Source of the DNA: Candidatus Thalassarchaeum betae
GTDB lineage: Archaea > Thermoplasmatota > Poseidoniia > Poseidoniales > Thalassarchaeaceae
Direction: 5' to 3'
DNA: 64,000 bases
NCBI GenBank assembly: GCA_003193925.1
Contig: PSPG01000004.1
Location: 51,720 to 115,719, forward strand
This document shows, piece after piece, positions 8,747 through 46,434 of the stretch (positions are counted from its first letter, which is position 1; each line of letters begins with the position of its first letter). The notes under the pieces were generated by a model. The model was not told the origin of the DNA, made no database searches, and was given only the letters and a program-made list of their open reading frames with translations. The position numbers were made by a program, and so were the translations under genes.

Positions 8747-9985
8747 GTGGCGAGCGAAGTGGATGCTCCTCCATTGGACAAGGAAAATACGAAAATCCCC
8801 TCATACCAGAGCCCGAAAAGATCCATCGACAAACTTCAAGTTGAGATGAAAGAGCTTTCCGAGAAGGCTCAGCAATTGCTCACGGAGAAGCTCTTCCTTG
8901 AGAATGAATGCGCCCAGTTGAAAAAACGTGCCAATAGGCTTGATGAAGAACTCAGGAACCTCAGAACTCCCCCTTACGTAATCGGGTTCATCCAAGACAG
9001 AGTTGGGGACAATGCAGTTGTTAGAAACTCAAATGGAACTGTCTTCCTAGTAAGTGTGAATCGGCGCTTGGACGAGTCTTTGCTGATTCCCGGTGCCAGA
9101 GTCGCATTGAATCAGGACTCTCTGTCGATAATCGAAGTGCTGGATAATTCCTGGGATCCGTTAGTATCCGGAACTGAAATCATAGAAAAACCTTTGACGA
9201 CGTTTTCTGATATAGGAGGATTAGACGAACAGATCAAGCAAATCAGGCAGGCCATCGAGTTACCCTTTGAGAGACCCGAAGCCTTCAGGGAATTCGGCAT
9301 AGAACCCCCTAAGGGTGTTCTCATTACCGGACCGCCAGGGACCGGGAAGACCATGCTAGCCAAGGCTGTTGCAAATTCTACTGAAGCCACCTTCTTGGGA
9401 TTGGTAGGTTCCGAATTGGCCCAGAAGTACATCGGCGAGGGTGGACGCATGGTCAGGGAACTGTTTGACCTTGCACGCAAGCGTGCTCCTGCCATCATTT
9501 TCATAGACGAAATTGATGCTATAGGCTCCAAGAGGCTCGATATGGCTACTTCTGGTGACCGCGAGGTACAGAGGACTCTCATGCAATTACTGGCTGAGTT
9601 GGACGGTTTCGAAACTTTGGATGATGTGAAGGTTATTGCGGCGACGAATAGGCCCGAACTGCTCGATGTAGCCCTACTCAGACCCGGAAGATTCGATCGG
9701 ATCATCGATATCGAACTACCGAACTCCGAGGGCAGACAGCATATATTCGAGGTACATTGCAACAACGTGCCCCTAGACAAACAAGTGAACATCAGGAAGA
9801 TGGCAATCGCTACTGAGGGCTACAGTGGTGCAGAGATCAAATCTATTATAATTGAAGCAGGCATGAGTGCGATCGCCGATTACAGAAATCGGTGCTCGGC
9901 CAAGGATTTCTCTTCAGCACTGACAATCATGGACCGAAAGCGCAAGGACAGCCTGCACAATGGTCCTGATTCCCTATACAGCTGA
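8747..9985 (+). CDS. pan: Proteasome-activating nucleotidase (PAN), AAA+ ATPase
   Basis: 412 aa. An N-terminal coiled coil is followed by an OB domain and an AAA module with Walker A 'GPPGTGKT', Walker B 'IIFIDEIDA' and second region of homology. Confidence 0.9.
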   Translation: MASEVDAPPLDKENTKIPSYQSPKRSIDKLQVEMKELSEKAQQLLTEKLFLENECAQLKKRANRLDEELRNLRTPPYVIGFIQDRVGDNAVVRNSNGTVFLVSVNRRLDESLLIPGARVALNQDSLSIIEVLDNSWDPLVSGTEIIEKPLTTFSDIGGLDEQIKQIRQAIELPFERPEAFREFGIEPPKGVLITGPPGTGKTMLAKAVANSTEATFLGLVGSELAQKYIGEGGRMVRELFDLARKRAPAIIFIDEIDAIGSKRLDMATSGDREVQRTLMQLLAELDGFETLDDVKVIAATNRPELLDVALLRPGRFDRIIDIELPNSEGRQHIFEVHCNNVPLDKQVNIRKMAIATEGYSGAEIKSIIIEAGMSAIADYRNRCSAKDFSSALTIMDRKRKDSLHNGPDSLYS

Positions 9986-10005
9986 TTAGCAATCCTCATC
10001 ACTCC

Positions 10006-11067
10006 ATGCCGCGACCCCGTATCGTGTCAGACCGTTGGATCGAGTGCGTCCCGAACATCAGCGAAGGCAGGGACGAAGAAGTCATCGAGGAGATTGTGGA
10101 CTCTGCAAGGGGGTTCCACGGATCGGCTGTACTCAGTGCTGAACCCGATGCGGACTACAATAGAACGGTCATCACAATCGCAGGTCAGGCCGAACCAGTT
10201 ACGCAGGCGGTGATATCACTGATTAGGAAATCTGCTGAACTAATAGACATGAGGCTGCACTCTGGTTCCCATCCTCGAATGGGGGCTGTAGATGTATGCC
10301 CATTCGTGCCCCTCGCCGAAGGTACACATGGCGATTGCATGGCTTCAGCAACGTCAGTTATGGAAGCTGTTGGAGATGATATCCCTGTGTACTTGTACGG
10401 AGACGCAGCGACATCTCAACCGCGGGCGCAATTGGCTAAACTCCGAAGAGGTCAGTATGAAGCCCTTGAGGCGAGGCTATCAGGAGGTGTATGGGATGAT
10501 GAAGATACCAGATTTCCGGATCGCTGGTCTGGCTCGTGGGGTGAGTCCGAGAAGAGGTTCGGGGCAATGGCGGTTGGGGTCAGACCGGTATTGGTCGCAT
10601 TCAACGTGAATGTTGACGAATCAGAGCCCCTCGTGTCGAAAGCTGCGGCACAGCTGATTAGGACCTCGGGTAGGCTAATCAAAGGCACTGATGGGAAAAA
10701 GATGAGAATTCCCGGGATGCTCCAGAACGTACAGGGAATGGGAGTCGGCCTGCCCACGAAAGGGATTTGCCAGGTTTCTATGAACCTACAGGATGTGTCC
10801 ATCACACCCTTGCACATGGCATTCGAGGCAGTCAATTCAATCGCCGCAGATCATGGTGTATCCACATGTGGGAGCGAATTGATCGGACTAGTGCCGTTGT
10901 CAGCAGTACTCGAAAGCGGCAGATGGTATCATGAAGATCCTGGCTCAGCGAATGCAGAGGAGTTAGTTGATGCTGCCGTTATGGGGCTGGGATTGGACCA
11001 ACTCGAGCCATTCGATGCCCACAACAGCATCATAGAGTGGTCTTTAGCAAGGAATCTCGGTGATTAG
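10006..11067 (+). CDS. Glutamate formimidoyltransferase (FTCD N-terminal-type)
   Basis: 353 aa with the FTCD_N fold. It is adjacent to and overlaps the cyclodeaminase-domain gene, within a hutU-hutH-hutI neighbourhood. Confidence 0.75.
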   Translation: MPRPRIVSDRWIECVPNISEGRDEEVIEEIVDSARGFHGSAVLSAEPDADYNRTVITIAGQAEPVTQAVISLIRKSAELIDMRLHSGSHPRMGAVDVCPFVPLAEGTHGDCMASATSVMEAVGDDIPVYLYGDAATSQPRAQLAKLRRGQYEALEARLSGGVWDDEDTRFPDRWSGSWGESEKRFGAMAVGVRPVLVAFNVNVDESEPLVSKAAAQLIRTSGRLIKGTDGKKMRIPGMLQNVQGMGVGLPTKGICQVSMNLQDVSITPLHMAFEAVNSIAADHGVSTCGSELIGLVPLSAVLESGRWYHEDPGSANAEELVDAAVMGLGLDQLEPFDAHNSIIEWSLARNLGD

Positions 11068-11686
11068 CATGAATGGCGGGTACGAAGATGTTCTCCATCA
11101 TATAGCATCTGATTCACCCACCCCTGGCGGTGGTTCGGTAGCCGCACTCTCCCTCGCTCATGCCCACGCTCTTGCCTCTATGGTGGCAAGACTGACTCTA
11201 GGCAAGGAAATATGGCAATCAGGGCACGAATCCGCTAATCACGTGCTTTCCGAGTCATCCGTTGGTCAGCAGACAGCGCTAACCCTTGCACATCGCGATG
11301 CTGAATCTTTCCAAGCTGTCATGCAGGCTTACCGATTACCCAACTCCGGCGACCATGAAGTATCTACTCGCAAGGCCGCGATTATGGATGCTTACATAAT
11401 AGCTACATCAGTTCCCTTAGAGACCGCTCAGAATGGACTGGGACTTCTCCTATTACTGGATGAGATGGCCATGTCATGCAATGCTAATGCTATTACAGAT
11501 CTGGCGGCTTCCGCAGAGATGGCCAACACCGCCATCATTATTGCAGGATTGAACGTGAGAATTAATCTGCAGTCACTACCCGATGTTAATGCTGATGCGT
11601 TCTCCAATGAATTGGCTGATGTCAAGGAACAAGCCTCGTCGCTAATTGGAAAAATCAGAACCACCGTGGAAGACAGGATGAAATGA
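11060..11686 (+). CDS. Formiminotetrahydrofolate cyclodeaminase (FTCD C-terminal domain-type)
   Basis: 208 aa. 'SPTPGGGSVAALSLAHAHALASMVARLT' is typical of the cyclodeaminase/FTCD_C family. It overlaps the formimidoyltransferase gene by 8 nt. Confidence 0.7.
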   Translation: MISMNGGYEDVLHHIASDSPTPGGGSVAALSLAHAHALASMVARLTLGKEIWQSGHESANHVLSESSVGQQTALTLAHRDAESFQAVMQAYRLPNSGDHEVSTRKAAIMDAYIIATSVPLETAQNGLGLLLLLDEMAMSCNANAITDLAASAEMANTAIIIAGLNVRINLQSLPDVNADAFSNELADVKEQASSLIGKIRTTVEDRMK

Positions 11687-11687
11687 T

Positions 11688-13697
11688 ATGGAATTCCAAA
11701 ACGATGTGGTGCATGGGATTCCACAATACATGCCCGAAATTAGGGGGTTGGATGACACGGTTGATCACGCTCCTCGCCGGCCCAGCGTCCTGAATGCTTC
11801 TGAGAGTCGGGAAGCCCTGAGCAACGCCCTGAGGTACTTCCCCAAGGATTGGCATGGAGAGCTATCAGCAGAATTTGCTGACGAGTTAAACGCATACGGT
11901 CACATCTACATGCATAGGTTCCGACCCTCATATCCAATGCACGCACGTCCGATTTCCGAGTATCCAGCAAAGATCGGGCAGGCCTCCGCAATAATGATGA
12001 TGATTCAGAACAACCTAGACCCTGTATTAGCGCAATACCCGCATGAGTTAGTCACCTATGGAGGCAACGGCACTGTATTTCAGAACTGGATCCAGTATCG
12101 ACTGACGATGGCGTATCTGGCCAAGATGAATCAGGACCAAACTCTGGTCATGTACTCCGGGCACCCCCTCGGGCTGTTTCCATCCAGCTCAGGAGCACCC
12201 CGAGTAATTATCACTAATGGCATGGTGGTCCCTAACTACTCCTCCCAAGCCGAATACGAGCGCATGAGCGCCATGGGAGTCTCACAATACGGACAGATGA
12301 CTGCTGGCTCTTACATGTACATAGGCCCTCAGGGAATAGTCCACGGGACTACAATAACCATCCTGAATGCTGCTAGGATGTACCTTGGCCTGACTACCGA
12401 TGATGGACTTGGGGGCGTTATGTTCGTCACGTCGGGTTTGGGAGGCATGTCGGGAGCGCAGGCGAAAGCTGCTGTGATTACTGGGGCTGTAGCTGTTATT
12501 GCAGACTGCAATGAGTTCGCGGCCAAGAAGTGTTTCGAACAGGGCTGGCTATCCGAATTACACTACGACCTCGATGGAATCATTGACAGAGCCCTCGATG
12601 CCAAGCGGAACTGCGAGGCTGTGTCATTAGGTTACGTAGGCAATGTCGTAGACCTGTGGGAGGCTTTGTATGAACGGGGGGTTTGTCCTGAACTGGGGAG
12701 CGATCAAACCAGTCTGCATAATCCATGGTTAGGAGGGTATATGCCTGCGGGCCTCAGTTACGACGAAGGACTGGAACTGCTGGAGGCCGATCCCCCGAAA
12801 TTTAGGGAAGCCGTCGAGGCATCGCTTGTCCGCCATGCTGATGCTGTGAACAAACTGACTAAATCTGGTATGCACTTCTGGGATTATGGGAATGCATTCC
12901 TGCTCGAGGCTGGTAAAGCTGGTGCTGATGTGATGGCTCCTGATGGTGTTTCATTCCGCTATCCCTCTTATGTCGAGGACATTATGGGTCCGATGTGTTT
13001 TGATTTCGGATTCGGCCCTTTCCGATGGGTCTGCACATCCTGTTCTGATGAAGACTTGGCTGCAACTGACCGAATCGCAGCCGACATACTGCGCCGTCTC
13101 GCACATATTGCGCCGGCGGAGACCAGGCTCCAGTATCTGGATAACCTGAGATGGATAGAGCAGGCCAGAGAGCACGGGCTTGTAGTTGGCAGTAAAGCTA
13201 GGATCCTCTACGCCGACGAAATAGGTAGAAAGGCTATCGCCTCAGCTTTCAATCGAGCCATCTCAGAGGGAGTTGTTTCAGCGCCTATAGTCCTTGGAAG
13301 GGACCATCATGACGTGGGGGGGACGGATAGCCCTTATCGCGAGACTGCGAATATCAGGGATGGTTCGATGTTCACCGCCGATATGTCGATACAGAATTTC
13401 GTCGGTGATGCCTTTAGAGGTGCTACGTGGGTCAGCCTCCACAATGGTGGTGGTGTTGGCTGGGGCGAAGCCATCAATGGTGGCTTCGGACTAATCATCG
13501 ACGGTTCAGAGGATTCTGAGATGCGGATTCAGTCAGTGCTAGCGTGGGACGTCAATAACGGCATAGCAAGACGTGCATGGGCCCGCAATCCCGGTTCAAT
13601 AGCAACGATCGAACAGGCAATGGGCAGAGAGCCTCTACTCGATGTTACCATGCCAAATTCAGTAGATTCAGAGATACTCAACTCACATTTCAATTAG
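11688..13697 (+). CDS. hutU: Urocanate hydratase (urocanase), long form with a ~90-aa N-terminal extension
   Basis: 669 aa. The conserved core runs 'NNLDP…YGGNGTVFQNW', through the NAD-binding 'GLGGMSGAQ' motif, to the C-terminus. The N-terminal 'LRYFPKDWHGELSAEFADELNAYGHIYMHRFRP' precedes the point where typical ~560-aa bacterial HutU begins. Confidence 0.9.
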   Translation: MEFQNDVVHGIPQYMPEIRGLDDTVDHAPRRPSVLNASESREALSNALRYFPKDWHGELSAEFADELNAYGHIYMHRFRPSYPMHARPISEYPAKIGQASAIMMMIQNNLDPVLAQYPHELVTYGGNGTVFQNWIQYRLTMAYLAKMNQDQTLVMYSGHPLGLFPSSSGAPRVIITNGMVVPNYSSQAEYERMSAMGVSQYGQMTAGSYMYIGPQGIVHGTTITILNAARMYLGLTTDDGLGGVMFVTSGLGGMSGAQAKAAVITGAVAVIADCNEFAAKKCFEQGWLSELHYDLDGIIDRALDAKRNCEAVSLGYVGNVVDLWEALYERGVCPELGSDQTSLHNPWLGGYMPAGLSYDEGLELLEADPPKFREAVEASLVRHADAVNKLTKSGMHFWDYGNAFLLEAGKAGADVMAPDGVSFRYPSYVEDIMGPMCFDFGFGPFRWVCTSCSDEDLAATDRIAADILRRLAHIAPAETRLQYLDNLRWIEQAREHGLVVGSKARILYADEIGRKAIASAFNRAISEGVVSAPIVLGRDHHDVGGTDSPYRETANIRDGSMFTADMSIQNFVGDAFRGATWVSLHNGGGVGWGEAINGGFGLIIDGSEDSEMRIQSVLAWDVNNGIARRAWARNPGSIATIEQAMGREPLLDVTMPNSVDSEILNSHFN

Positions 13698-13710
13698 CGC
13701 GATGTTCTAA

Positions 13711-15270
13711 TTGGCGCATGCCCTGCGACGTTTGATGCCTTTGCGCGTGATAGAGCTGGATGGCTCCTCCCTAGTAGTTGAAGATGTCATAGACGCAGGA
13801 CGTGGTCTGGCTACAGTTTGTATCAGCGACTCGTCTAAAATCACGATGCAAGCTTCCAGAGAAGCCGTATTGAGGATACTCGATAGCGATAGGGTAGTCT
13901 ATGGCATTAACACTGGCTTCGGGGCGTTGTCATCTGTTACGATCGACCCGACTCAACTGGAAGAGCTGCAACGCAATCTAATCCGAAGTCATGCTTGTGG
14001 GGTCGGCGAACGCATGCACCCGGAACACGTGTTGATGATGATGGTCATTCGAGCCAATGCCATAGCCAAGGGCAACTCTGGCGCCAGAGTCGAACTGACA
14101 GAGTTACTGGCGTCGATGGTCAATCACAGAATCGCCCCCGTGATCCCCCGTATAGGCTCCCTGGGTGCTTCGGGAGATCTCGCTCCTCTGTCCCATCTGA
14201 CACTCGGGTTAATCGGCGAGGGAGAATGTAACATCATAGGGGACAACGGCTCCTGGGAAGTTGTCCAATCCGACTCCGCACTTCGCAGCGTCAGACTGGA
14301 GCCTTTAGTGCTCCAAGCCAAGGAAGGGCTGACTCTGATTAACGGGACTAGCCAGATGTGCACATATCTAGCGTTATGCGTGTCTAATCTTGACCATCTT
14401 CTTCTTGCAGCAGATGCTGCAATCTCTTGCTCGCTGGAGGCGATACGGGGTTCACACTCTCCCTTCGATCATCGAATCCACGAAGCACGCCCCCAAGTCG
14501 GTCAATCGATATCGGCAGCCCGAATCAGCGCTCTCCTCGCTGATTCCAGAATCAATGATTCACATGCTGATTGCGATCGCGTCCAAGACGCATATTCGTT
14601 TAGGTGCTCACCACAGGTACACGGCCCGGTGATAGAACTGTTGCGGGAAACTCGCAGGATGCTCGAAATTGAACTGAATAGCGCTACAGACAACCCGCTC
14701 GTCTTCACCGATGGTAAGATGGATGATGTCATCAGCGGTGGCAACTTCCATGGTCAAAACCTTGCTCTTGCAAGCGATTATCTGGCCATCGCATGTCATG
14801 AATTGGCTAGCATCTCCGAGCGGAGGATCAATCAGGTTCTAGACCCTCAGTGGAGCGGTCACAACGCTTTCTTGGCAAACCATGAAGGTTTGGAAAGTGG
14901 CTTGATGATCATCCAGTATGTGGCTGCTGCACTAGTCGCTGAACTTCATTTGATGGCTCAGCCAGCTACTACGAGCAACGTACCTGTCAGTTTAGGAAAG
15001 GAAGACCACGCATCGATGGGCGCCACGGGTACATACAGAACATTCAGAGCCACAGAGTTCCTCTCCCAGGTAATCGCAAATGAGATGATTTGCTCCGCAG
15101 AAGCACTCGACAGAATAGTTGAGAGACCCGGCAAAGGGGTTGCTTGCGTGGCCGATTGGATTAGGTCACATGTCCCTCCTCTCGAAGCAGACAGGGGGAT
15201 GACTGCGGACTGCGAGCGTCTTTCATCAGCCCTGTTGAAGGGAGAGTTGTCCTCCGCTTTGGGGGATTAG
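13711..15270 (+). CDS. hutH: Histidine ammonia-lyase
   Basis: 519 aa. The MIO-forming 'GSLGASGDLAPLSHL' (ASG) motif and overall PAL/HAL fold are present. Confidence 0.9.
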   Translation: MAHALRRLMPLRVIELDGSSLVVEDVIDAGRGLATVCISDSSKITMQASREAVLRILDSDRVVYGINTGFGALSSVTIDPTQLEELQRNLIRSHACGVGERMHPEHVLMMMVIRANAIAKGNSGARVELTELLASMVNHRIAPVIPRIGSLGASGDLAPLSHLTLGLIGEGECNIIGDNGSWEVVQSDSALRSVRLEPLVLQAKEGLTLINGTSQMCTYLALCVSNLDHLLLAADAAISCSLEAIRGSHSPFDHRIHEARPQVGQSISAARISALLADSRINDSHADCDRVQDAYSFRCSPQVHGPVIELLRETRRMLEIELNSATDNPLVFTDGKMDDVISGGNFHGQNLALASDYLAIACHELASISERRINQVLDPQWSGHNAFLANHEGLESGLMIIQYVAAALVAELHLMAQPATTSNVPVSLGKEDHASMGATGTYRTFRATEFLSQVIANEMICSAEALDRIVERPGKGVACVADWIRSHVPPLEADRGMTADCERLSSALLKGELSSALGD

Positions 15271-16002
15271 ATGCAAGAAAGGCTGCACATGTCCCATCAT
15301 CCCGGGACCGATCCACCCCCCTTCGAGGCCTCGGTAATCGACGTAACAGACGATTCGCTGATTCTGTCTCAATCGTACTGTTACCCCCGTGGAGGCGGTC
15401 AACCCGGTGATACAGGGTTATTCATTCATGACGGGATTGGAAGGGGGTTCTCCGAGACCCTCGGTGGAGAGTTTATCCGCCACCCAGTCGATGAGATTAC
15501 TGATTTCTCAGTGGGGGACGAAGTCAGGTGCGTGATTGACGGTGAGCGGCGGAACAGACATGCCAAGATGCACACCGCCCAGCACATCATCTCAGCTTTG
15601 GCTGATGACTTATGGGGTGCGGAGACGGTTGGTAATCAAATCAGCACAGAATACACCAGAATCGACTTCCTGTTCCCGAACAGGGACGAATACGACTCCG
15701 AAACCCTGGCTGATGCTGTGAATTCGGTCATAGGCTCCGGAACCCTCGTTAGCGTACATGAATGGCCTAGAGATGCCGTGAGGGAGCACGAGCATATGCG
15801 GCACACGAATTTCATGGAGAGGATTCCCTCCTTCATCACGGAACTGAGAGTCGTTGAGATAGAGGGGATCGACCTTTGTCCGTGCGCAGGTACCCATGTT
15901 GGCTCAACTAATGATATAGAGCCCATCGTCATAACCAATGTCAAATCTAAGGGCGCTGGAAAATTCAGGATCACCTATCAGTTTGAAAATGAAACATTAT
16001 AG
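15271..16002 (+). CDS. alaX: Alanyl-tRNA editing protein AlaX-M (AlaRS/ThrRS second additional domain)
   Basis: 243 aa. 'HTAQHII' (HxxxH) and 'CPCAGTHV' (CxxxH) are the zinc-binding editing-site motifs. The gene starts immediately after the hutH stop. Confidence 0.8.
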   Translation: MQERLHMSHHPGTDPPPFEASVIDVTDDSLILSQSYCYPRGGGQPGDTGLFIHDGIGRGFSETLGGEFIRHPVDEITDFSVGDEVRCVIDGERRNRHAKMHTAQHIISALADDLWGAETVGNQISTEYTRIDFLFPNRDEYDSETLADAVNSVIGSGTLVSVHEWPRDAVREHEHMRHTNFMERIPSFITELRVVEIEGIDLCPCAGTHVGSTNDIEPIVITNVKSKGAGKFRITYQFENETL

Positions 16003-16017
16003 GTACCTAACTATTAG

Positions 16018-16090
16018 TGGGCTCGGCAGGAATTGAACCTGCGATCTTCGCCATGTCAAGGCGACGTCATAACCCCTAGACCACGAGCCC
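16018..16090 (-). tRNA. tRNA-Val (anticodon GAC)
   Basis: Minus-strand sequence GGGCTCG TG GTC…GAC G TCGCC TTGACAT GGCGA AGATC GCAGG TTCAATT CCTGC CGAGCCC A. It has a 7-bp acceptor stem, 5-bp anticodon and T stems, the T-loop TTCAATT, anticodon GAC and no encoded CCA. Coordinates are ±1. Confidence 0.85.
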
Positions 16091-16564
16091 TAGAGAATTC
16101 GACCTAGGAGGGAGTTGCAAATGAAGCATTCTCTAGATGCAATTAACCGACAATCTTCGAAATTCTCCCATCACATCCGTAATTGGAACAGCTACCAGAC
16201 AAACGAGTTCGGCCATTGCTCATGACTATCTTCTTCGCATTCAATATACGGCAGTAGGTCTTGCACTTGAGGCAGAAACCCATTTCCTGGCCGTCCACGA
16301 ACGTGGATCTGTGATTTCGTATTCAATGCATCTCCGAGGGGGGATTCAAAGTATAATATTCAATGATATACTCAAATCGATGTACTACGACTCTGTTATC
16401 AACATTTTTCAGGATAAGTTTTCCGATAAGTGCTCTTATCGGTCACATGACACACGGTAAGATACACTGTCACGAGATAAACAGACTGGATTCGCTACGC
16501 AGATGTTGAAAAATTATCTTCATAGTACTTATTAACTGTAAAAATGAGAATAGGTTTGTAGTCA

Positions 16565-17848
16565 TTAGGGAGAATTTACAATAAAGCCGTCGATAATGGA
16601 ATGCGATATCGGATTCTCCCCCGGAGTCTGACACCAACCATCGACCGATTCGGACCACAGAATGTTCAGATCAGCCCGTGAGCCCACAGCGAGGGTGCCA
16701 CTGACATCGGAACCTCGCAGTGTGGTGGCTGGGTTCCTAGTCACACTGACCAGTGCTGCGAGTGGATCGATCCCCATGCGATTGGAAGCTAGGTTGCCGA
16801 TGAATGGGATGGAGAGGATACGACAATTGGGATTGAAGTCTGTTGCGAGGGAGAATGCCCACCCTTCCTCCATGCAAGTCTGAACAGGCAGGTCCAGAGA
16901 CGCTCCCATGACGTAGGGAGTTCCCGGAAGGAAGGTCTGCATAGTGCCACTGTCCGAAGCGGCCTTACGTGCATCGAGCCCGGATTTTGCGACGTGGTCT
17001 GCACTGACTGCTCCAATGTCAGCAGCAAGTGCCAGTCCACCTGAGTCCTCAAACTCGTCCACGTGTAGCCTGGCGGGTAATCCAAGTTCCTTGGAAGCCA
17101 GGACGATCGCCTCTGTCTCATCCGTGCTGAACCATCCGGGCTCACAGAACACATCGGCCCAAAGTGCGATACCTTGATCCATGACGCTTGGCAGTTGCTC
17201 AGATATCAATTGATCGAGATACTCTGACCTGGTGCAATCAGAGGGGAAATCGTGACCACCTAGCCAAGTGGGGAACAGATTCACCCTAGTGTGTCTGCTT
17301 AACTCATCTACAGCCTCCAGAAGCCTCAGTTCAGATTCCACACTGAGTCCATATCCGCTCTTGACCTCCATCGAGGTGGTTCCCAGTGAAGATGCATAAT
17401 CCAACCTGCTCATGCCCACTGAAAGCAAATCCTCGATTGACATGGATCGCGTGCTTGCCACGGTCTTCGCTATACCGCCACCGAGTTCTGCTATCTGACG
17501 ATAAGTCAGTCCGGACTGTCTGAGTCTCATTTCCGAGGAACGATCCCCGCCCCATAGCAAGTGAGTATGCGAGTCGACGAAACCGGGAACGATTGCACGA
17601 CCACCAGCATCAACCACGGACAGTTCGGCAGAAATGTCTCTTTGCCCGTCCCAGCCCGGTGCGTATTCCGCGATCAGAGATTGAGAGTCTGTAATCTGGA
17701 CGATAATGCCTCTTTCGATCAAAATACCCTGTCCGGGAGGATATATGTTGTTACTGCGGTCTGACATGTCATCCCCGGTAAGCGGTTCACGGACGTCTCC
17801 CAGGCAGAGATGGGCTAGCTCACCGGAGTTCACAATAAGCGTCCGCAT
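16565..17848 (-). CDS. hutI: Imidazolonepropionase
   Basis: Amidohydrolase fold with 'GFVDSHTHL' metal-binding histidines and overall HutI similarity. The ORF opens at 17929; I place the start at the internal Met at 17848. Confidence 0.85.
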   Translation of the reverse strand: MRTLIVNSGELAHLCLGDVREPLTGDDMSDRSNNIYPPGQGILIERGIIVQITDSQSLIAEYAPGWDGQRDISAELSVVDAGGRAIVPGFVDSHTHLLWGGDRSSEMRLRQSGLTYRQIAELGGGIAKTVASTRSMSIEDLLSVGMSRLDYASSLGTTSMEVKSGYGLSVESELRLLEAVDELSRHTRVNLFPTWLGGHDFPSDCTRSEYLDQLISEQLPSVMDQGIALWADVFCEPGWFSTDETEAIVLASKELGLPARLHVDEFEDSGGLALAADIGAVSADHVAKSGLDARKAASDSGTMQTFLPGTPYVMGASLDLPVQTCMEEGWAFSLATDFNPNCRILSIPFIGNLASNRMGIDPLAALVSVTRNPATTLRGSDVSGTLAVGSRADLNILWSESVDGWCQTPGENPISHSIIDGFIVNSP

Positions 17849-17897
17849 GAGCCGCGACAGCCATGATGCTTGAAAGGACTGTCTGCCTCGAAGGCAC

Positions 17898-18908
17898 ATG
17901 AGCGCGGTGATACTGGGCATCGAGAGCACGGCCCATACCCTTTCCTTTGGATTTGTTGACGTGGAAGGTGTTGCCTATCCCTCCGAATCTGCCGTATTCA
18001 AGCCTGAAGAGGGCGGTATCCACCCCAGAGAGGCTGCTGATCATCATTCCAAAGTCGCTGGTGAATTACTGAAGAGGTTCATGGAGACCCACGAATTGTC
18101 ACGGAGGGATATCGATGCAGTCGCTTTTAGCCAAGGCCCGGGATTGGGCCCGTGCCTGAGAGTAGGGGCTTCCATCGCAAGATCCCTCTCTCATTCTTGG
18201 AATATCCCCCTAGTAGGCGTGAACCACTGTGTCGCCCATATTGAGATCGGCAGGAGTCAGACTGGCTGTGATGACCCTGTATTGCTGTATGTGAGCGGTG
18301 GTAACACCCAAGTGATCGCGCGTGCTAACGAAAGGTACCGCGTACTCGGCGAAACCCTCGACATCGGTATTGGCAACATGCTGGACAAGTTCGCCCGCGC
18401 TCAAGGAATCCCGTTTCCGGGCGGACCAGAAATTGAGCGACTCGCAGCTGCTTGGACCGCTGACACGCCCGGTGCTGAATTAAGCGGCGTATCCCTCCCA
18501 TACGGAGTCCAGGGGATGGATCTCACATTCTCGGGAATTCTGACTGCAGCACAGCAGAAGACATTGGACGGTAATCCACTGAGAGAGGTGTGCTGGTCCT
18601 TGCAAGAGCATTCCTTCGCCGCTTGTGTAGAAGTTGCAGAAAGGGCCATGGCCCACACCGGTAAGGAGGAGTTGTTACTGGGTGGGGGGGTTGCATGCAA
18701 CGAGAGATTGAGGGAGATGTCGCAAATTATGTGCGGAGAGAGAGGAGGAGAATCGTTCTGGCCTGCAAGGCCCTTCTGTGTTGACAACGGAACCATGATT
18801 GCCGAGCTCGGTCGGCGTATGATTGACTCCGGAACGATAACTTCACTCACGAACAGCGCGGTGTCACCCGGACTGCGCACGGATCACACCATCGTCACAT
18901 GGGATTGA
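17898..18908 (+). CDS. kae1: tRNA N6-adenosine threonylcarbamoyltransferase Kae1 (KEOPS catalytic subunit)
   Basis: 336 aa. 'ILGIESTAHT' and 'HCVAHIEIG' (metal-binding HxxH) belong to the ASKHA fold typical of Kae1/TsaD. Confidence 0.9.
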   Translation: MSAVILGIESTAHTLSFGFVDVEGVAYPSESAVFKPEEGGIHPREAADHHSKVAGELLKRFMETHELSRRDIDAVAFSQGPGLGPCLRVGASIARSLSHSWNIPLVGVNHCVAHIEIGRSQTGCDDPVLLYVSGGNTQVIARANERYRVLGETLDIGIGNMLDKFARAQGIPFPGGPEIERLAAAWTADTPGAELSGVSLPYGVQGMDLTFSGILTAAQQKTLDGNPLREVCWSLQEHSFAACVEVAERAMAHTGKEELLLGGGVACNERLREMSQIMCGERGGESFWPARPFCVDNGTMIAELGRRMIDSGTITSLTNSAVSPGLRTDHTIVTWD

Positions 18909-22324: not shown

Positions 22325-22627
22325 ATGCAAAGTTCACTCGAACGCCTCAATCAGGATGGGATTCTGACTTCCAAAGCGGTTTCACAAGAGGTCCGGTTCC
22401 TGTCTGAGACACTGGAGACTCTACTGGACTCGGGTGAGATTTCCACTGATGCCTATCTCGACGCGGGTACCATTCAGGGGGGGCTGTCAGTCTTGGCAAA
22501 CTTGATTGCTCAGGGCGTATCCGCTGAAGAAGCTCGTATCCAACTCCAACAACTGAGAGTCAGGGCCGAGAACATCAACTCGAATTACCCTGAACTCGAT
22601 GGCAAGATCGAGGGAATTCGTCATTAG
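22325..22627 (+). CDS. Hypothetical 100-aa protein
   Basis: ORF with protein-like composition and no recognisable family. Confidence 0.35.
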   Translation: MQSSLERLNQDGILTSKAVSQEVRFLSETLETLLDSGEISTDAYLDAGTIQGGLSVLANLIAQGVSAEEARIQLQQLRVRAENINSNYPELDGKIEGIRH

Positions 22628-22684
22628 TATTACCCCAGTAATACTTAGCGAATACTTATCAATAACGTCACCGGCCGCATATGC

Positions 22685-22867
22685 GTGCCTAAGGTCAGTT
22701 TTGACATACCCAACGAATTGCTCGAAGACCTGCGCCTCCACGTCGGCGATGACAAGAAGTTCGTGTCGCTGGCCGACGCAGTTAGAACCGCTTGCAGGAA
22801 GCTCCTCGATCAACTGGATGCGATCGATGAGATGCATGGCAGAATTCGGAGGAAATCTGATGAGTGA
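22685..22867 (+). CDS. Small ribbon-helix-helix (CopG/Arc/MetJ-like) DNA-binding protein
   Basis: 60 aa. 'PKVSFDIPNELLEDLRLHV…FVSLADAVRTACRKLL' fits the RHH beta-alpha-alpha pattern. Its stop overlaps the folE start by 8 nt. Confidence 0.5.
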   Translation: MPKVSFDIPNELLEDLRLHVGDDKKFVSLADAVRTACRKLLDQLDAIDEMHGRIRRKSDE

Positions 22868-23447
22868 TGCTCCAAGCAGGGAACAGGCCGTTTCGGCCGT
22901 TGACACCCTGGTCAGGTACATCGAGTCTGCAAACGGTGAACTGAGGGAAGGGCTTGCTAGTACCCCGGAGAGAGTCATCGAGTCGTTCGATGAAATCTAC
23001 TCGGGTTATTCTGGCGATGCCAAATCGATACTCGATGCCACATTCAACTCCGAGGGCTATGATGGAATCGTCCTACTGAGGGACATCGAGTTCCATTCGG
23101 TTTGCGAACACCACCTGCTACCATTCACAGGCAAGGCCCACATAGCCTACATCCCAACAGACAGGATTGTCGGAATCAGTAAACTTGCACGGCTGCTCGA
23201 CTTGCATTCCAGCAAGTTGCAGAATCAGGAAAGGCTGACCAAGGGCATCGCGGATGACATCGAGTCGATACTGGCCCCCCTTGGATGCGCGGTGATACTC
23301 GAGGCTACCCATAATTGCATGCAATGCAGGGGAGTCTCTAAGCAGAATGCTGTGATGATTACCAGCGCGATCCGCGGTGCATTCTTTGACAAGCAAGAGG
23401 CTCGAGGTGAACTGCTGCAACTCATCAACATCCAGTCGGACAAGTGA
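22860..23447 (+). CDS. folE: GTP cyclohydrolase I (FolE)
   Basis: 'FHSVCEHHLLPFTGKAHIAYIP' is the zinc-binding CEHH motif region of GCH1. Start placed at the ATG at 22860, which has a GGAGG 7 nt upstream. Confidence 0.85.
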   Translation: MSDAPSREQAVSAVDTLVRYIESANGELREGLASTPERVIESFDEIYSGYSGDAKSILDATFNSEGYDGIVLLRDIEFHSVCEHHLLPFTGKAHIAYIPTDRIVGISKLARLLDLHSSKLQNQERLTKGIADDIESILAPLGCAVILEATHNCMQCRGVSKQNAVMITSAIRGAFFDKQEARGELLQLINIQSDK

Positions 23448-23451
23448 TTCG

Positions 23452-24081
23452 ATGGTACTACTGCCCACCGGTTCTGACCTCGAACAGGTCTTCCCGATAG
23501 TGGAGATCTTTCACAGCATACAGGGAGAGGGTCACAACACCGGGATGTCCTCGGTGTTCATCCGATTCGGTAGGTGCAACCTCAGGTGCCCTTGGTGCGA
23601 TACCGAGTTCGACGAGTGGGAGGACATGACGCTGGGCCAGATCATCAACGAGATCAGCAAGTTCGATTGCGACAGGATCATCCTGACCGGAGGCGAGCCG
23701 GCTCTGCAGGATCTACCAACCCTGTGCGGAGCCCTGGGGGGCATTGGCTACTACATCAGCATCGAGACAAACGGGACTGTCGCGCTGCCCAGCGGCATCA
23801 TCGACTGGATATGCGTCAGCCCGAAGGACCAGGAATACCCGGATGTGGCCATCAGGCAGAGGACCGGGAACGAGTTGAAGGTCGTTAACCTCGGTCAAGA
23901 CCTGTCTATGTACGACGACCTCAAAGGAGGCTTCGACCACCTATATCTGCAGCCCTGCTATGACGAGGGGCAAAGTGTGGAGTGGAACGGGCTCAACTTC
24001 CACGATACTTTCGAGCAGGTACGATCGAGGCCCGAGTGGAGGCTCTCGCTCCAGTCTCACAAATGGATGTGCGTGGAATGA
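23452..24081 (+). CDS. queE: 7-carboxy-7-deazaguanine synthase (QueE, radical SAM)
   Basis: 'VFIRFGRCNLRCPWCDT' is the QueE-type Cx14CxxC cluster motif. Start placed at the ATG at 23452, 4 nt after the folE stop. Confidence 0.8.
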   Translation: MVLLPTGSDLEQVFPIVEIFHSIQGEGHNTGMSSVFIRFGRCNLRCPWCDTEFDEWEDMTLGQIINEISKFDCDRIILTGGEPALQDLPTLCGALGGIGYYISIETNGTVALPSGIIDWICVSPKDQEYPDVAIRQRTGNELKVVNLGQDLSMYDDLKGGFDHLYLQPCYDEGQSVEWNGLNFHDTFEQVRSRPEWRLSLQSHKWMCVE

Positions 24082-24860
24082 GCAGGGTGGTAATGGCGTT
24101 CAGCGGAGGCATGGACTCGACAGCTCTTCTACTGAGGATGCTGGCAAGAAGGAGTGAAGTCACCTGCATCTCGTACGACTACGGGCAGAAGCACATATTG
24201 GAGTTGCAGAGGGCGGCTGCGAACATCGAATACCTACAATCCAAGGGTTACGAGGTCGAGCACCACGTTGCTGACCTATCCAGCGCCATGGCGCTGTTCG
24301 ACTCGGCCCTCACTGACTCTCAAATCTCCGTGCCTGAAGGCCATTACGAGGAAGAGCAGATGAAGCAGACCGTGGTGCCCAACAGAAATGCCATCTTCTC
24401 CTCGATCCTCTACGGCTACGCGCTCTCTGTCTCATCGAAGGAGGACGTGGATGTCTCCGTGGCTCTAGGGGTGCACTCCGGGGACCACGCAATCTACCCT
24501 GACTGCAGGCCGGAGTTCTACGATGCCCTGATGCAGGCTTTCAAGGCTGGAAACTGGGACTCTCATAGAGTGACGATGGATCTGCCATATGTGGATGGGG
24601 ACAAGGAGAGTATCCTCAGAGATGCGATGGTTTCGTGCGATAGTCTCGGAGTTGACTTCGACACCGTCTTCCGGAACACCAACACCTCTTACAGCCCGGA
24701 TCAATTGGGGCGCAGCTCGGGCAGAACTGGGGCCGATGTGGAGAGGATACTGGCATTCCATGCCATAGGCCGCAAAGACCCCGTCGAATATGTAGTGGAC
24801 TGGAGTACGGTGCTTGAGCGCGCGCTAGCCATAGAGAAGGAATACGAGGCGGCAATATGA
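24078..24860 (+). CDS. queC: 7-cyano-7-deazaguanine synthase (QueC)
   Basis: 'VVMAFSGGMDSTALL' is the PP-loop SGGxDS motif and a C-terminal zinc-binding cysteine region is present. ATGA start/stop overlap with queE. Confidence 0.85.
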   Translation: MSRVVMAFSGGMDSTALLLRMLARRSEVTCISYDYGQKHILELQRAAANIEYLQSKGYEVEHHVADLSSAMALFDSALTDSQISVPEGHYEEEQMKQTVVPNRNAIFSSILYGYALSVSSKEDVDVSVALGVHSGDHAIYPDCRPEFYDALMQAFKAGNWDSHRVTMDLPYVDGDKESILRDAMVSCDSLGVDFDTVFRNTNTSYSPDQLGRSSGRTGADVERILAFHAIGRKDPVEYVVDWSTVLERALAIEKEYEAAI

Positions 24861-25276
24861 CGGGCTCCCGACCGAGATTCAACCACGACAGAGATCCTGT
24901 CTGGAGGTCTGACCTCACACAACTCCAGTACCACGTTACCAGGGAGGCAGGCACTGAGATGCCGAACTCGGGCATTTACAACATGGAGGAGAGGGACGGT
25001 TCCTACTACTGCATCTGCTGCGGACACATACTCTTCACTGCGGAGATGAAATACCACTCGGGGTGCGGCTGGCCCGCCTTCCACACCGAGCACGCTGACG
25101 CTGGCATACGCAGGATCGAGGACAATAGCCAGGGTAGGAAGCGGACAGAGGTCAGGTGCAGTTCATGCGACGCCCACCTCGGTCACGTGTTTAATGACGG
25201 GCCCAATCAGTTCGGCGGCGAGAGGTACTGCATCAACTCGGCCAGTATGGACTTCGTAGCGGAGGGAGGCGCATGA
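24857..25276 (+). CDS. msrB: Peptide methionine sulfoxide reductase MsrB
   Basis: Two CxxC zinc motifs, 'GCGWPAF', and the catalytic 'RTEVRCSSCDAHLGHVFNDGP' are present. ATGA overlap with the queC stop. Confidence 0.85.
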   Translation: MTGSRPRFNHDRDPVWRSDLTQLQYHVTREAGTEMPNSGIYNMEERDGSYYCICCGHILFTAEMKYHSGCGWPAFHTEHADAGIRRIEDNSQGRKRTEVRCSSCDAHLGHVFNDGPNQFGGERYCINSASMDFVAEGGA

Positions 25277-25722
25277 GTACATCAATCCGGAGGTGGGTAG
25301 AGACAGACACCGGCCACAGGGTTCCCAACCACAGGAGCAAGTGCCGGAACCTGCACGGCCACAGGTACAGATGGGAGGCAGAGCTCGAAGGGGAAGTGGT
25401 GACCCGGGAAGGCGTTTCCGAAGAGGGAATGCTGATCGACTTCGGAGACGTCTCGGAGATACTGGAGGAGCAGATCCACGATGTCGTCGATCACGCATTC
25501 ATCGTCTATGAGGGTGATGCCGAGGCCATGCAGGCGTTGTCAGTCATGGGCGATGACCACAAGACTCTGGTAGTGCCGTTCGTCCCTACGGCCGAGAACC
25601 TCGCCAAGTGGGCATTCTCAGTAGTCGAGTCGCACATCACAACTGCCTATGGCAATGATTTGAGGCTGGTAGCCTTCCACGTCAGGGAGACTCCCAAGTC
25701 CTGTGCCAGTTGGCGTCTCTAA
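25273..25722 (+). CDS. queD: 6-carboxy-5,6,7,8-tetrahydropterin synthase (QueD)
   Basis: 'CRNLHGHRY' is the C-x-x-H-G-H zinc/catalytic motif of QueD/PTPS. ATGA overlap with msrB. Confidence 0.8.
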   Translation: MSTSIRRWVETDTGHRVPNHRSKCRNLHGHRYRWEAELEGEVVTREGVSEEGMLIDFGDVSEILEEQIHDVVDHAFIVYEGDAEAMQALSVMGDDHKTLVVPFVPTAENLAKWAFSVVESHITTAYGNDLRLVAFHVRETPKSCASWRL

Positions 25723-33929: not shown

Positions 33930-33974
33930 GCATCGTCAAAGGTGGTCGTGATACATCAGCGTCACGCAAGACGC

Positions 33975-34790: not shown

Positions 34791-34880
34791 GTCCCGCGTA
34801 GTGCATCCAGCGTATTGGGTTATGGCTGATGCAGCGAAGAATCTGCAACCGTTCAAATACCACTGCCTGAAGGGCATGGT

Positions 34881-35267
34881 GTGAGCATCCTTGGTGGAGA
34901 CGGTTTCACTCTCCCTATCCTGACTCCGGTCGAGGTCGTGAATGTCGAAATTGAATTCACTGACTCGGCGAAAGCGGCGATGATGAAGAACATGGACGGC
35001 GACGAAGGCTCTCATGTGCTGATTATCAGCGCCCAATCCGGCGGTTGCTCGGGATTCATGTATGACATGGCGATAGCAGATGACCCCGACGATCCCAATT
35101 TCCAGCGCATAGATGCCGATGGGATTACCGTGCTGGTGCACAACAAGGATAGTCCGCTCCTGAATGGCATTCGCGTCGACTTCAAGGACACCCTCATGGG
35201 AGGGGGCTTCCAGATTGACAACCCCAATGCAGACAGGTCCTGCGGATGCGGCCAGTCCTTTGGTTGA
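34881..35267 (+). CDS. A-type Fe-S cluster carrier (IscA/HesB/ErpA family)
   Basis: 'SGGCSGFMY' and the C-terminal 'CGCGQSF' are the three conserved cluster-ligating cysteines of the HesB/IscA family. Confidence 0.75.
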   Translation: MSILGGDGFTLPILTPVEVVNVEIEFTDSAKAAMMKNMDGDEGSHVLIISAQSGGCSGFMYDMAIADDPDDPNFQRIDADGITVLVHNKDSPLLNGIRVDFKDTLMGGGFQIDNPNADRSCGCGQSFG

Positions 35268-35273
35268 GGTCTC

Positions 35274-45554: not shown

Positions 45555-45592
45555 TGCATCAGATTCATTCGCTTGACTCCAGTGGAGCGCGC

Positions 45593-46066: not shown

Positions 46067-46074
46067 GTGGGCGC

Positions 46075-46370: not shown

Positions 46371-46434
46371 CCCGATTATGGCGGGAAATCGCCCCATATC
46401 AACGAATCCCTGACCCGAAATGTGGGATAAGGCG

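What the first reader, a model, noticed from the sequence alone, without database searches (positions are those of the whole stretch)
10006..17929. Complete folate-dependent (eukaryote-type) histidine degradation cluster with long-form urocanase and co-transcribed alaX
Formimidoyltransferase, cyclodeaminase-domain protein, HutU, HutH and AlaX-M are adjacent on the plus strand with short or overlapping junctions. The tRNA-Val gene follows and hutI is encoded divergently on the minus strand (16565..17848). FTCD is split into two genes whose ends overlap by 8 nt. This is the formiminoglutamate/tetrahydrofolate route used by animals, not the HutG or HutF routes common in bacteria. The urocanase has a ~90-aa N-terminal extension (…ALRYFPKDWHGELSAEFADELNAYGHIYMHRFRP…) that is absent from typical ~560-aa bacterial HutU. 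From memory, it resembles the N-terminus of long eukaryotic urocanases. The adjacent alanyl-tRNA editing protein AlaX starts directly after the hutH stop, which is an unexpected association.
Basis: partly seen in the sequence, partly recalled or inferred. Interest (0 to 1): 0.55.

Follow-up and report, generated by a model that had tools for sequence, protein, structure and literature searches.

The report
Archaeal folate-linked histidine breakdown gene cluster
This is an ordinary, intact gene cluster for breaking down histidine through the folate branch in a marine Group II archaeon; its "animal-like" features are shared with many bacteria, and the neighbouring tRNA-proofreading gene is most likely just a co-transcribed passenger.

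Summary
The described genes are real and intact: glutamate formimidoyltransferase (FT), a cyclodeaminase-family protein (CD), a 669-aa urocanase (HutU), histidine ammonia-lyase (HutH) and an AlaX-M-like editing protein on the plus strand. tRNA-Val(GAC), a small DUF5679 ORF and imidazolonepropionase (HutI) lie on the minus strand. The host is a Marine Group II archaeon (Poseidoniales).

The urocanase N-terminal extension of about 90 aa is coding and homologous to that of eukaryotic urocanases (T. cruzi 6UEK, vertebrate UROC1). The same long form is also abundant in Bacteroidota and occurs in Acidobacteriota, Fibrobacteraceae and all MGII relatives examined. In a simple tree the MGII enzymes sit among the bacterial ones, not with eukaryotes.

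Separate FT and CD genes, and the order FT-CD-hutU-hutH, match the Bacteroidales operon. This is therefore the prokaryotic folate-dependent Hut variant, not a eukaryote-type cluster.

The hutH-alaX junction (0-5 nt) is conserved in seven further MGII lineages besides the window. The whole ~20-kb housekeeping neighbourhood is conserved there too. alaX is absent from three other MGII hut loci and from all 79 bacterial loci.

Verdict: observation confirmed, interpretation partly supported, low novelty.

The parts
10006..11067 (+). Glutamate formimidoyltransferase (FT, ftcD). It transfers the formimino group of N-formimino-L-glutamate to tetrahydrofolate, releasing glutamate.
   Evidence: PF07837 plus PF02971. 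TIGR02024 scores 262.6 bits against a cutoff of 221. It aligns to residues 3-325 of rat and pig FTCD (1tt9, 1qd1). The start lies 20 nt after the PAN stop.
11069..11686 (+). Cyclodeaminase-family protein (CD, FTCD_C). Inferred to be formimino-THF cyclodeaminase, producing 5,10-methenyl-THF and NH3. An alternative GTG start at 11060 would overlap FT by 8 nt.
   Evidence: PF04961, E = 1.4e-46. It matches residues 345-536 of FTCD (1tt9) and T. maritima cyclodeaminase 1o5h, but scores best against the methenyl-THF cyclohydrolase 7vg4. The FchA model NF045657 scores 124 bits, below its cutoff of 275. The start was chosen by homology with MN[ED]GY in relatives.
11688..13697 (+). Long-form urocanate hydratase (HutU, 669 aa). 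It converts urocanate to 4-imidazolone-5-propionate using tightly bound NAD+.
   Evidence: Three urocanase Pfam domains. TIGR01228 scores 408 bits against a cutoff of 375. It has the GLGGMSGAQ NAD motif. It is 56% identical to T. cruzi 6UEK over aa 8-667.
11688..11972 (+). N-terminal extension of HutU (aa 1 to about 95), absent from short urocanases of about 550 aa.
   Evidence: Conserved within MGII (alignment A2). Conserved across archaea, bacteria and eukaryotes, with invariant HAP, NxLRY, EFxxEL and GxIxMxRxxP (alignment A1). Used alone as a query it hits 591 protein clusters, including Acidobacteriota and vertebrate UROC1.
13735..15270 (+). Histidine ammonia-lyase (HutH). It converts histidine to urocanate and NH3. 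The longest ORF starts at TTG 13711.
   Evidence: PF00221, E = 1e-162. TIGR01225 scores 565 bits against a cutoff of 539. The Ala-Ser-Gly triad that forms the MIO cofactor is present at aa 153 of the long ORF.
15271..16002 (+). AlaX-M-like free-standing alanyl-tRNA editing protein. Its ATG directly follows the hutH stop.
   Evidence: PF07973 plus the C-terminal part of PF01411. NF040865 (AlaXM) scores 173 bits, below its cutoff of 300. It aligns to the P. horikoshii AlaRS editing domain (2zze) and to AlaX-M (2e1b). The GGGQP, HTAQH (HxxxH) and CAGTH (CxxxH) motifs are intact.
16017..16090 (-). tRNA-Val (anticodon GAC), convergent with alaX.
   Evidence: Found by ARAGORN and by Rfam RF00005 at 67.9 bits. 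Conserved at this position in five MGII loci examined and in L068, which lacks alaX.
16143..16298 (-). Small 51-aa zinc-ribbon ORF (DUF5679-like), lying between hutI and tRNA-Val.
   Evidence: PF18930, E = 3.4e-5, 24.3 bits, just below the gathering cutoff of 27. tblastn finds it at 47-68% identity at the same position in 15 MGII loci, including L068.
16565..17848 (-). Imidazolonepropionase (HutI). It converts 4-imidazolone-5-propionate to N-formimino-L-glutamate. The longest ORF extends to 17929 and overlaps the kae1 start.
   Evidence: TIGR01224 scores 304.6 bits against a cutoff of 298. The HxH metal motif (DSHTHL) is present. Homologues are 417-431 aa.

Best explanation
This is a complete, prokaryote-style, folate-dependent histidine-utilisation (Hut) cluster in a Marine Group II archaeon.

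The inferred pathway runs as follows:
1. HutH deaminates histidine to urocanate.
2. The long-form, NAD+-containing HutU hydrates urocanate to 4-imidazolone-5-propionate.
3. HutI opens the ring to give N-formimino-L-glutamate.
4. FT passes the formimino group to tetrahydrofolate, releasing glutamate.
5. The CD protein deaminates 5-formimino-THF to 5,10-methenyl-THF and NH3.

The organism thereby gains glutamate, two ammonia molecules and a one-carbon unit. This fits the peptide- and amino-acid-scavenging lifestyle inferred for MGII.

FT-CD-hutU-hutH-alaX is a tightly packed same-strand array and is probably one transcript. It may also include the upstream PAN gene. hutI, DUF5679 and tRNA-Val form a convergent unit.

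The urocanase belongs to a long-form clade with an N-terminal extension of about 90 aa. That clade is shared by eukaryotes, Bacteroidota, Acidobacteriota and MGII.

alaX is most likely the organism's ordinary Ser/Gly-tRNA(Ala) deacylase, sitting in the operon as a passenger.

Shown here: gene identities, intact motifs, homology of the extension, and synteny. Inferred: enzyme activities, the cofactor (THF), co-transcription, and the passenger status of alaX.
For: Family models pass their curated cut-offs for FT, HutU, HutH and HutI. Catalytic or cofactor motifs are intact.

FT and CD align to the two halves of mammalian FTCD. The folate branch with separate FT and CD genes is documented in bacteria (PMC12288474; S. 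pyogenes gene list in PMC3364286).

Twenty-three bacterial loci have FT upstream of hutU, usually followed by hutH and hutI. They are almost all Bacteroidales. CD was detected in eight of them, between FT and hutU.

The long HutU gave at least 599 confirmed prokaryotic matches. The window enzyme is 57-64% identical to the bacterial long forms, 56-58% to the eukaryotic ones, and 38% to short forms. MGII nests among the bacteria in a neighbour-joining tree.

Besides the window, seven MGII lineages show the array PAN-FT-CD-HutU-HutH-AlaX-(tRNA-Val, DUF5679, HutI on the minus strand)-Kae1. In two of them only the FT-to-MM-CoA-mutase part was fetched, so PAN was not seen. Where longer flanks were fetched, MetRS, MM-CoA mutase and FolE are syntenic as well.

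alaX is absent from 79 bacterial long-HutU loci and from MGII loci L029, L068 and L086.

MGII are described as proteolytic, with many amino-acid degradation genes (PMC6461757).
Against: - No expression or biochemical data exist for any of these proteins.
- The CD protein scores higher against a methenyl-THF cyclohydrolase structure (7vg4, 89 bits) than against cyclodeaminases. Its exact reaction therefore rests on its position next to FT.
- Use of THF rather than another pterin carrier in this archaeon is assumed.
- The hutH-alaX junction is unusually tight (0-5 nt) in every lineage that has it. This would also fit functional coupling.
- The tree is neighbour-joining with only two eukaryotes, and its deep nodes are weak (the MGII clade has 63% bootstrap).
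Confidence: 0.85

Rival explanations
1. The AlaX-like protein is functionally coupled to histidine catabolism. It would be co-expressed to remove mischarged tRNA, for example Ser- or Gly-tRNA(Ala), when the folate branch of the pathway loads the one-carbon, serine and glycine pools. Alternatively it could act on another mis-acylated tRNA that arises during growth on histidine.
For: The alaX ATG lies 0-5 nt from the hutH stop in all eight MGII lineages that have it. alaX sits inside the cluster, between hutH and hutI. All five AlaX orthologues sampled from the AlaX side (50-60% identity) are embedded in hut clusters. There is a precedent: the free-standing editing factor CtdA is encoded next to the canavanine degradation operon (PMC10018355).
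Against: The linkage is seen only in one MGII clade, where about 20 kb of unrelated housekeeping genes is equally syntenic. PAN is almost as tightly joined to FT, at 8-38 nt. alaX is absent from 79 bacterial long-HutU loci and from three MGII hut loci, where a DUF835 gene follows hutH in two. The protein has the canonical AlaX/AlaRS editing motifs and nothing unusual. No histidine-pathway intermediate is an obvious AlaRS mis-substrate.
Confidence: 0.08
2. The cluster, or at least the urocanase, reflects a specific evolutionary link with eukaryotes. That link would be either transfer between eukaryotes and MGII or an archaeal origin of eukaryotic UROC1. This is the strong form of the 'eukaryote-type' reading.
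For: The best PDB hit is T. cruzi urocanase, aligned end to end including the extension. The N-terminal 95 aa hit vertebrate UROC1.
Against: Bacterial long forms are as similar or more similar (57-64% against 56-58%). Eukaryotes form their own branch (84% bootstrap), while MGII groups among Bacteroidota, Fibrobacteraceae and Acidobacteriota. FT and CD are unfused, unlike eukaryotic FTCD. The operon order matches Bacteroidales.
Confidence: 0.04
3. The second gene is a methenyl-THF cyclohydrolase (FchA-like), not a cyclodeaminase. Alternatively, the HutU/HutH pair acts on a histidine analogue such as thiourocanate from ergothioneine. In either case the pathway would differ from classical Hut.
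For: The CD protein's best solved relative is a methenyl-THF cyclohydrolase (7vg4, E = 2.9e-24). HutU also hits the thiourocanate hydratase models.
Against: NF045657 (FchA) scores 124 bits against a cutoff of 275. The thiourocanate models score 282-335 bits against cutoffs of 880-930. The HutU and HutH equivalog models pass their cutoffs. The gene sits immediately after FT, as in the two-domain FTCD, and it aligns to the FTCD CD domain.
Confidence: 0.06

Closest known systems
Bacterial folate-dependent Hut operon (ftcD-fchA/CD-hutU-hutH-hutI), as in Bacteroidales, Fusobacterium nucleatum and Streptococcus pyogenes
   Same: It has the same five enzymes, separate FT and CD genes, and a long-form HutU. 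The order FT-CD-hutU-hutH is the same (pathway described in PMC12288474).
   Different: In the window hutI is inverted. It is separated from hutH by alaX, tRNA-Val and a DUF5679 ORF. The host is an archaeon. FT, HutH and HutI are only 31-42% identical to the Bacteroidales proteins.
Eukaryotic urocanase UROC1 / T. cruzi urocanate hydratase (PDB 6UEK)
   Same: Same length class (669 aa against 681 aa) and a homologous N-terminal extension. Identity is 56-58% over the whole protein.
   Different: It is not specifically related, because bacterial long forms are equally close or closer. T. cruzi pairs its enzyme with formiminoglutamase, not FT/CD (PMC12203737).
Mammalian bifunctional FTCD (PDB 1tt9, 2pfd, 1qd1)
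   Same: The window FT aligns to FTCD residues 3-325. The window CD aligns to residues 345-536.
   Different: Here the two domains are separate genes, with no linker and no fusion.
Short-form bacterial HutU (P. putida 1uwk, Geobacillus 1x87, B. subtilis 2fkn)
   Same: Same three-domain core and the same NAD-binding motif.
   Different: Identity is only about 38%. These proteins lack the first 90 or so residues.
AlaX-M trans-editing protein (P. horikoshii PH0108, PDB 2e1b)
   Same: Same two-domain layout, with an N-terminal GGGQP domain and an editing domain carrying the HxxxH and CxxxH zinc motifs.
   Different: It scores below the NCBIfam AlaXM equivalog cutoff (173 bits against 300). Its position inside a hut operon is not reported for characterised AlaX proteins.
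CtdA, the canavanyl-tRNA(Arg) deacylase encoded beside the canavanine degradation operon (PMC10018355)
   Same: It is a free-standing tRNA editing protein co-located with an amino-acid catabolic operon.
   Different: It has a different fold (B3/B4 domain). A toxic analogue provides a clear rationale there, and no such rationale is evident for histidine.

Membership tests
Histidine ammonia-lyase (HutH) | Equivalog model score above cutoff, and the Ala-Ser-Gly triad that forms the MIO cofactor | tested here: met
   TIGR01225 scores 565 bits against a cutoff of 539. GSLGASGDLAPLSH is present.
Urocanate hydratase (HutU) | Three urocanase domains, equivalog score above cutoff, and a glycine-rich NAD+ motif | tested here: met
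   PF17391, PF01175 and PF17392 all match. TIGR01228 scores 408 bits against a cutoff of 375. GLGGMSGAQ is present.
Long-form (UROC1-type) urocanase | A homologous N-terminal extension of about 90 aa preceding the Urocanase_N domain | tested here: met
   Aligns from aa 8 to 6UEK. Motifs are invariant across eukaryotes, bacteria and MGII. The N-terminus alone hits vertebrate UROC1 and Acidobacteriota proteins.
Imidazolonepropionase (HutI) | Equivalog score above cutoff and the amidohydrolase HxH metal motif | tested here: met
   TIGR01224 scores 304.6 bits against a cutoff of 298.15. DSHTHL is present.
Glutamate formimidoyltransferase (FtcD) | FTCD_N plus FTCD domains, with equivalog score above cutoff | tested here: met
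   TIGR02024 scores 262.6 bits against a cutoff of 221.25. Full-length alignment to the FT domain of 1tt9 and 1qd1.
Formimino-THF cyclodeaminase | FTCD_C fold | tested here: met
   PF04961 scores 158.9 bits against a cutoff of 24.5.
Formimino-THF cyclodeaminase | Cyclodeaminase rather than methenyl-THF cyclohydrolase activity | tested here: inconclusive
   The best PDB hit is the cyclohydrolase 7vg4 (89 bits), followed by the FTCD CD domain (65.7 bits) and 1o5h (52.4 bits). The FchA equivalog scores below its cutoff. The activity can be settled only by assay.
Eukaryotic bifunctional FTCD | FT and CD domains fused in one polypeptide | tested here: not met
   There are two ORFs separated by a stop codon at 11065-11067.
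AlaX-M trans-editing protein | NCBIfam equivalog NF040865 score above cutoff | tested here: not met
   Scores 173.1 bits against a cutoff of 300. It is therefore filed as AlaX-M-like.
AlaX-M trans-editing protein | N-terminal GGGQP domain, plus an editing domain with HxxxH and CxxxH zinc ligands, and no aminoacylation domain | tested here: met
   YPRGGGQPGDTG, MHTAQH and CAGTH are present. The protein is 243 aa.
AlaX-M trans-editing protein | Deacylation of Ser- or Gly-tRNA(Ala) | not testable with these tools
   This requires a biochemical assay.

The most novel reading that the evidence does not exclude
In one large clade of Marine Group II archaea, an AlaX-type tRNA-editing protein has been recruited into the folate-dependent histidine catabolic operon. 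There it would act as a pathway-coupled quality-control factor, analogous to CtdA in canavanine degraders. It would protect translation when histidine breakdown perturbs the one-carbon, serine and glycine pools.
Probability: 0.08. Interest if true: 0.55.

Novelty: new member of a known kind. Interest (0 to 1): 0.2.

Why it matters
The cluster documents that abundant surface-ocean MGII archaea carry a complete route from histidine to glutamate, two ammonia molecules and a folate-bound one-carbon unit. This fits their inferred protein-scavenging lifestyle.

The work also clarifies that the "long" urocanase is not a eukaryotic peculiarity. It is a widespread clade spanning Bacteroidota, Acidobacteriota, MGII archaea and eukaryotes, which is useful for annotation and for thinking about the origin of UROC1.

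None of this changes current understanding. The only open curiosity is the conserved hutH-alaX operon junction.

Tried and rejected
1. AlphaFold2 prediction of HutU, using an MGII-only alignment (A2). It gave mean pLDDT 55.6 and pTM 0.50, too poor to analyse the extension. The only usable result is two predicted helices at aa 37-48 and 53-70, with pLDDT of about 72-82. No fold search was run.
2. A search of the 1.84-billion-protein representative library with the N-terminal 95 aa. It returned mostly short metagenomic fragments. It was useful only after cluster look-up of the few long hits.
3. The sigma-70 promoter and terminator scan. It found fewer sites than in shuffled sequence (2 against 7.9, and 3 against 5.6), and it does not apply to archaeal promoters.
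4. Literature searches. 'Marine Group II' plus 'urocanate' found nothing, and '6UEK' found nothing relevant. The Boreiko 2020 structure paper is not in the library.
5. The idea that long HutU always travels with the FT/CD branch. Rejected: ten bacterial loci (mainly Flavobacteriales and Cytophagales) and T. cruzi have long HutU without FT (PMC12203737).
6. Compositional evidence for recent transfer. None was found: GC is 0.52 across the cluster against 0.50-0.55 in the flanks.
7. Rfam scan. It found no riboswitch or other RNA element in the cluster apart from the tRNA.

Full report
**What is there**

The window is a chromosomal segment of a Marine Group II archaeon (Poseidoniales).
- The flanking genes are archaeal housekeeping genes: small primase subunit, MetRS, Tsr3-like, MBF1-like, PAN, Kae1, ribosomal protein S19e, tRNA-splicing endonuclease and SRP RNA.
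- The best named relatives of HutU and AlaX are labelled 'Marine Group II euryarchaeote MED-G38', 'Candidatus Thalassarchaeaceae' and 'Candidatus Poseidoniales'.

Between 10006 and 17848 lie the following genes:

| Gene | Coordinates | Strand |
|---|---|---|
| FT | 10006-11067 | + |
| CD | 11069-11686 | + |
| HutU | 11688-13697 | + |
| HutH | 13735-15270 | + |
| AlaX-M-like | 15271-16002 | + |
| tRNA-Val(GAC) | 16017-16090 | - |
| DUF5679-like ORF (51 aa) | 16143-16298 | - |
| HutI | 16565-17848 | - |

- FT, HutU, HutH and HutI each exceed the curated cutoff of their NCBIfam equivalog.
- CD is a clear FTCD_C family member.
- Key motifs are intact: the MIO triad in HutH, GLGGMSGAQ in HutU, HxH in HutI, and GGGQP, HxxxH and CxxxH in AlaX.

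- The tRNA is on the minus strand.
- hutI is convergent with the plus-strand array.
- Homologues show that the CD start corresponds to ATG 11069, 1 nt after the FT stop, rather than to GTG 11060 with an 8-nt overlap. In several sister lineages an ATG does overlap the FT stop by 8 nt, in the motif ATGAATGA.

**The urocanase**

- The first 95 or so codons are conserved at the protein level among 22 MGII homologues.
- The protein aligns from residue 8 to residue 667 with the experimentally characterised T. cruzi urocanase (6UEK, 681 aa, E = 6e-242). Short bacterial urocanases align only from residue 93-98.
- The N-terminal 95 residues alone retrieve 591 clusters from 1.84 billion representatives. 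These include Acidobacteriota (680 aa) and vertebrate UROC1 from narwhal and a fish.
- An eight-sequence alignment across the three domains has invariant HAP, NxLRY, EFxxEL and GxIxMxRxxP motifs.

The resemblance to eukaryotic long urocanases is therefore real, but it is not special to eukaryotes.
There were 600 matched stretches, 599 of them confirmed.
- The best 80 were overwhelmingly Bacteroidota (Bacteroidales, Flavobacteriales, Cytophagales, Saprospiraceae). The rest were Fibrobacteraceae, Oscillospiraceae-labelled and Comamonadaceae-labelled MAGs, and three MGII loci.

In a bootstrapped neighbour-joining tree:
- The long forms are one clade, far from the short forms (38% identity).
- The two eukaryotes group together (84% bootstrap), apart from the prokaryotes.
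- MGII forms a clade among the bacterial long forms (63% bootstrap). The alaX-bearing subclade has 97% support.
- The window enzyme is 56% identical to T. cruzi, 58% to narwhal, and 57-64% to the bacterial long forms.

The long form is also not tied to the folate branch.
- T. cruzi uses formiminoglutamase (PMC12203737).
- Ten bacterial loci, mainly Flavobacteriales and Cytophagales, have long HutU with HutH and mostly HutI but no FT within 10 kb.

**The pathway type**

Degradation of formiminoglutamate through FT and a separate cyclodeaminase is a recognised third Hut branch 'in mammals and some bacteria'. In F. nucleatum it is described gene by gene (PMC12288474). S. pyogenes also lists hutU, a cyclodeaminase gene and hutH together (PMC3364286).
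- Among the 80 genome loci, 26 have FT upstream of HutU, and 23 of these are bacterial.
- The bacterial loci, almost all Bacteroidales, show FT, then hutU, usually followed by hutH and hutI, all on one strand. CD was detected in eight of them, between FT and hutU.
- The window has the same order for its first four genes.
- FT and CD align to residues 3-325 and 345-536 of mammalian FTCD, but here they are two genes.

The cluster is therefore the prokaryotic version of the folate route, not a eukaryote-type one.

One caveat applies. The CD protein's closest solved relative is a methenyl-THF cyclohydrolase (7vg4). Its assignment as a cyclodeaminase therefore rests on its position next to FT.

**The alaX linkage**

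- From the HutU side, two MGII lineages carry the arrangement. From the AlaX side, five more orthologues at 50-60% identity do so.
- All seven have the order FT-CD-HutU-HutH-AlaX-(tRNA-Val, DUF5679, HutI on the minus strand)-Kae1. PAN lies upstream of FT in the five where that flank was fetched.
- The alaX start (MQEK[LM]HM) lies 0-5 nt after the hutH stop in every case. Co-transcription is therefore likely, and the linkage is conserved.
- The same loci also conserve MetRS, Tsr3, MBF1, PAN, Kae1, FKBP, methylmalonyl-CoA mutase and FolE around the cluster. PAN ends only 8-38 nt before FT.
- Conservation of the alaX adjacency therefore cannot be distinguished from general synteny.
- alaX is absent from all 79 bacterial long-HutU loci.
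- It is also absent from three other MGII hut loci (L029, L068, L086). In two of these a convergent DUF835 gene follows hutH, while the tRNA-Val, DUF5679 and hutI block is retained in L068.
- The protein itself is a canonical AlaX/AlaRS-editing homologue. It scores below the NCBIfam AlaXM equivalog cutoff.
- I conclude that alaX is most likely a housekeeping passenger. I give a small probability (about 0.08) that it is a pathway-coupled editing factor, for which CtdA in canavanine degraders is a precedent (PMC10018355).

**Mechanism**

The steps are inferred from the well-established Hut and FTCD enzymology:
1. Histidine is converted to urocanate and NH3 by HutH.
2. Urocanate is converted to 4-imidazolone-5-propionate by HutU.
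3. That is converted to N-formimino-L-glutamate by HutI.
4. FT yields glutamate and 5-formimino-THF.
5. CD yields 5,10-methenyl-THF and NH3.

Gene identities, motifs and synteny are shown here. Activities, the folate cofactor and the transcript structure are inferred. A GCV_T folate-binding-domain protein elsewhere in the window (35274-36188) is weak support for folate use.

**Novelty and score**

These genes are already named correctly by automatic annotation in public MAGs. MGII are known to encode many amino-acid degradation genes (PMC6461757). I found no paper that specifically describes the MGII hut cluster.

I classify this as a new member of a known kind, with low interest (0.2). The residual curiosities are the conserved hutH-alaX junction and the apparent in-situ replacement of FT within MGII.

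Noticed in passing
window 16143-16298 (-): A 51-aa zinc-ribbon ORF (DUF5679-like; Pfam E = 3.4e-5, just below the gathering score) lies between hutI and tRNA-Val. It is conserved at 47-68% identity at the same position in 15 MGII loci, including one that lacks alaX.
   Followed up: partly
window 10006-11067; loci L001, L005, L029, L068, L086, L092, L094, L096: The FT protein of MGII falls into two deeply diverged types. The window, L005, L029 and L068 form one; L001, L086, L092, L094 and L096 form the other. Identity between the window FT and the second-type proteins checked (L001, L086) is only 36-41%, about the same as to Bacteroidales FT. The split disagrees with the HutU and HutH trees. 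This suggests in-situ replacement of FT by a xenologue at the same genomic position.
   Followed up: partly
window 9983-10008: PAN ends only 20 nt before the FT start (8-38 nt in relatives), so the hut genes may be co-transcribed with PAN. The codons for the PAN C-terminal Leu-Tyr (CTATAC), about 30 nt upstream of the FT ATG, could double as a TATA-like element for a leaderless transcript. This is pure speculation and was not tested.
   Followed up: no
L068 9935-12003: In the Poseidoniales MAG FRAM18_bin109, HutU is split into two overlapping ORFs (220 aa and 469 aa). This is either a frameshift (pseudogene) or an assembly error. In this locus the PAN-FT-CD segment is inverted and lies about 6 kb from hutU.
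   Followed up: no
L035 and L076 (genome contigs): Contigs binned as Comamonadaceae and Oscillospiraceae carry long HutU that clusters tightly with Flavobacteriales (100% bootstrap) and Bacteroides respectively. This is likely mis-binning or recent transfer.
   Followed up: no
window 22599-25722 (+): A block of genes for 7-deazaguanine (preQ0/archaeosine) synthesis: GTP cyclohydrolase I (22599-23447), QueC (23982-24860) and a PTPS/QueD-like gene (25273-25722). An MsrB (SelR) gene is inserted between QueC and QueD. Relatives have a radical-SAM gene (QueE-like) after FolE.
   Followed up: no
window 31647-35297 (-); L068 5547-8681: A molybdopterin oxidoreductase gene paired with FdhD lies about 14 kb from the hut cluster in the window. 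The same pair sits directly between the FT/CD genes and hutU in L068.
   Followed up: no
window 46065-46377 (-): Archaeal SRP RNA (Rfam RF01857, 123 bits), lying next to an EVE-domain protein gene (45548-46066).
   Followed up: yes
L009 (Acidobacteriota) and L010/L011 (marine Bacteroidota-like): Here the long-form HutU is solitary, with no other hut gene within 10 kb. The long urocanase is therefore often encoded away from its pathway partners.
   Followed up: partly
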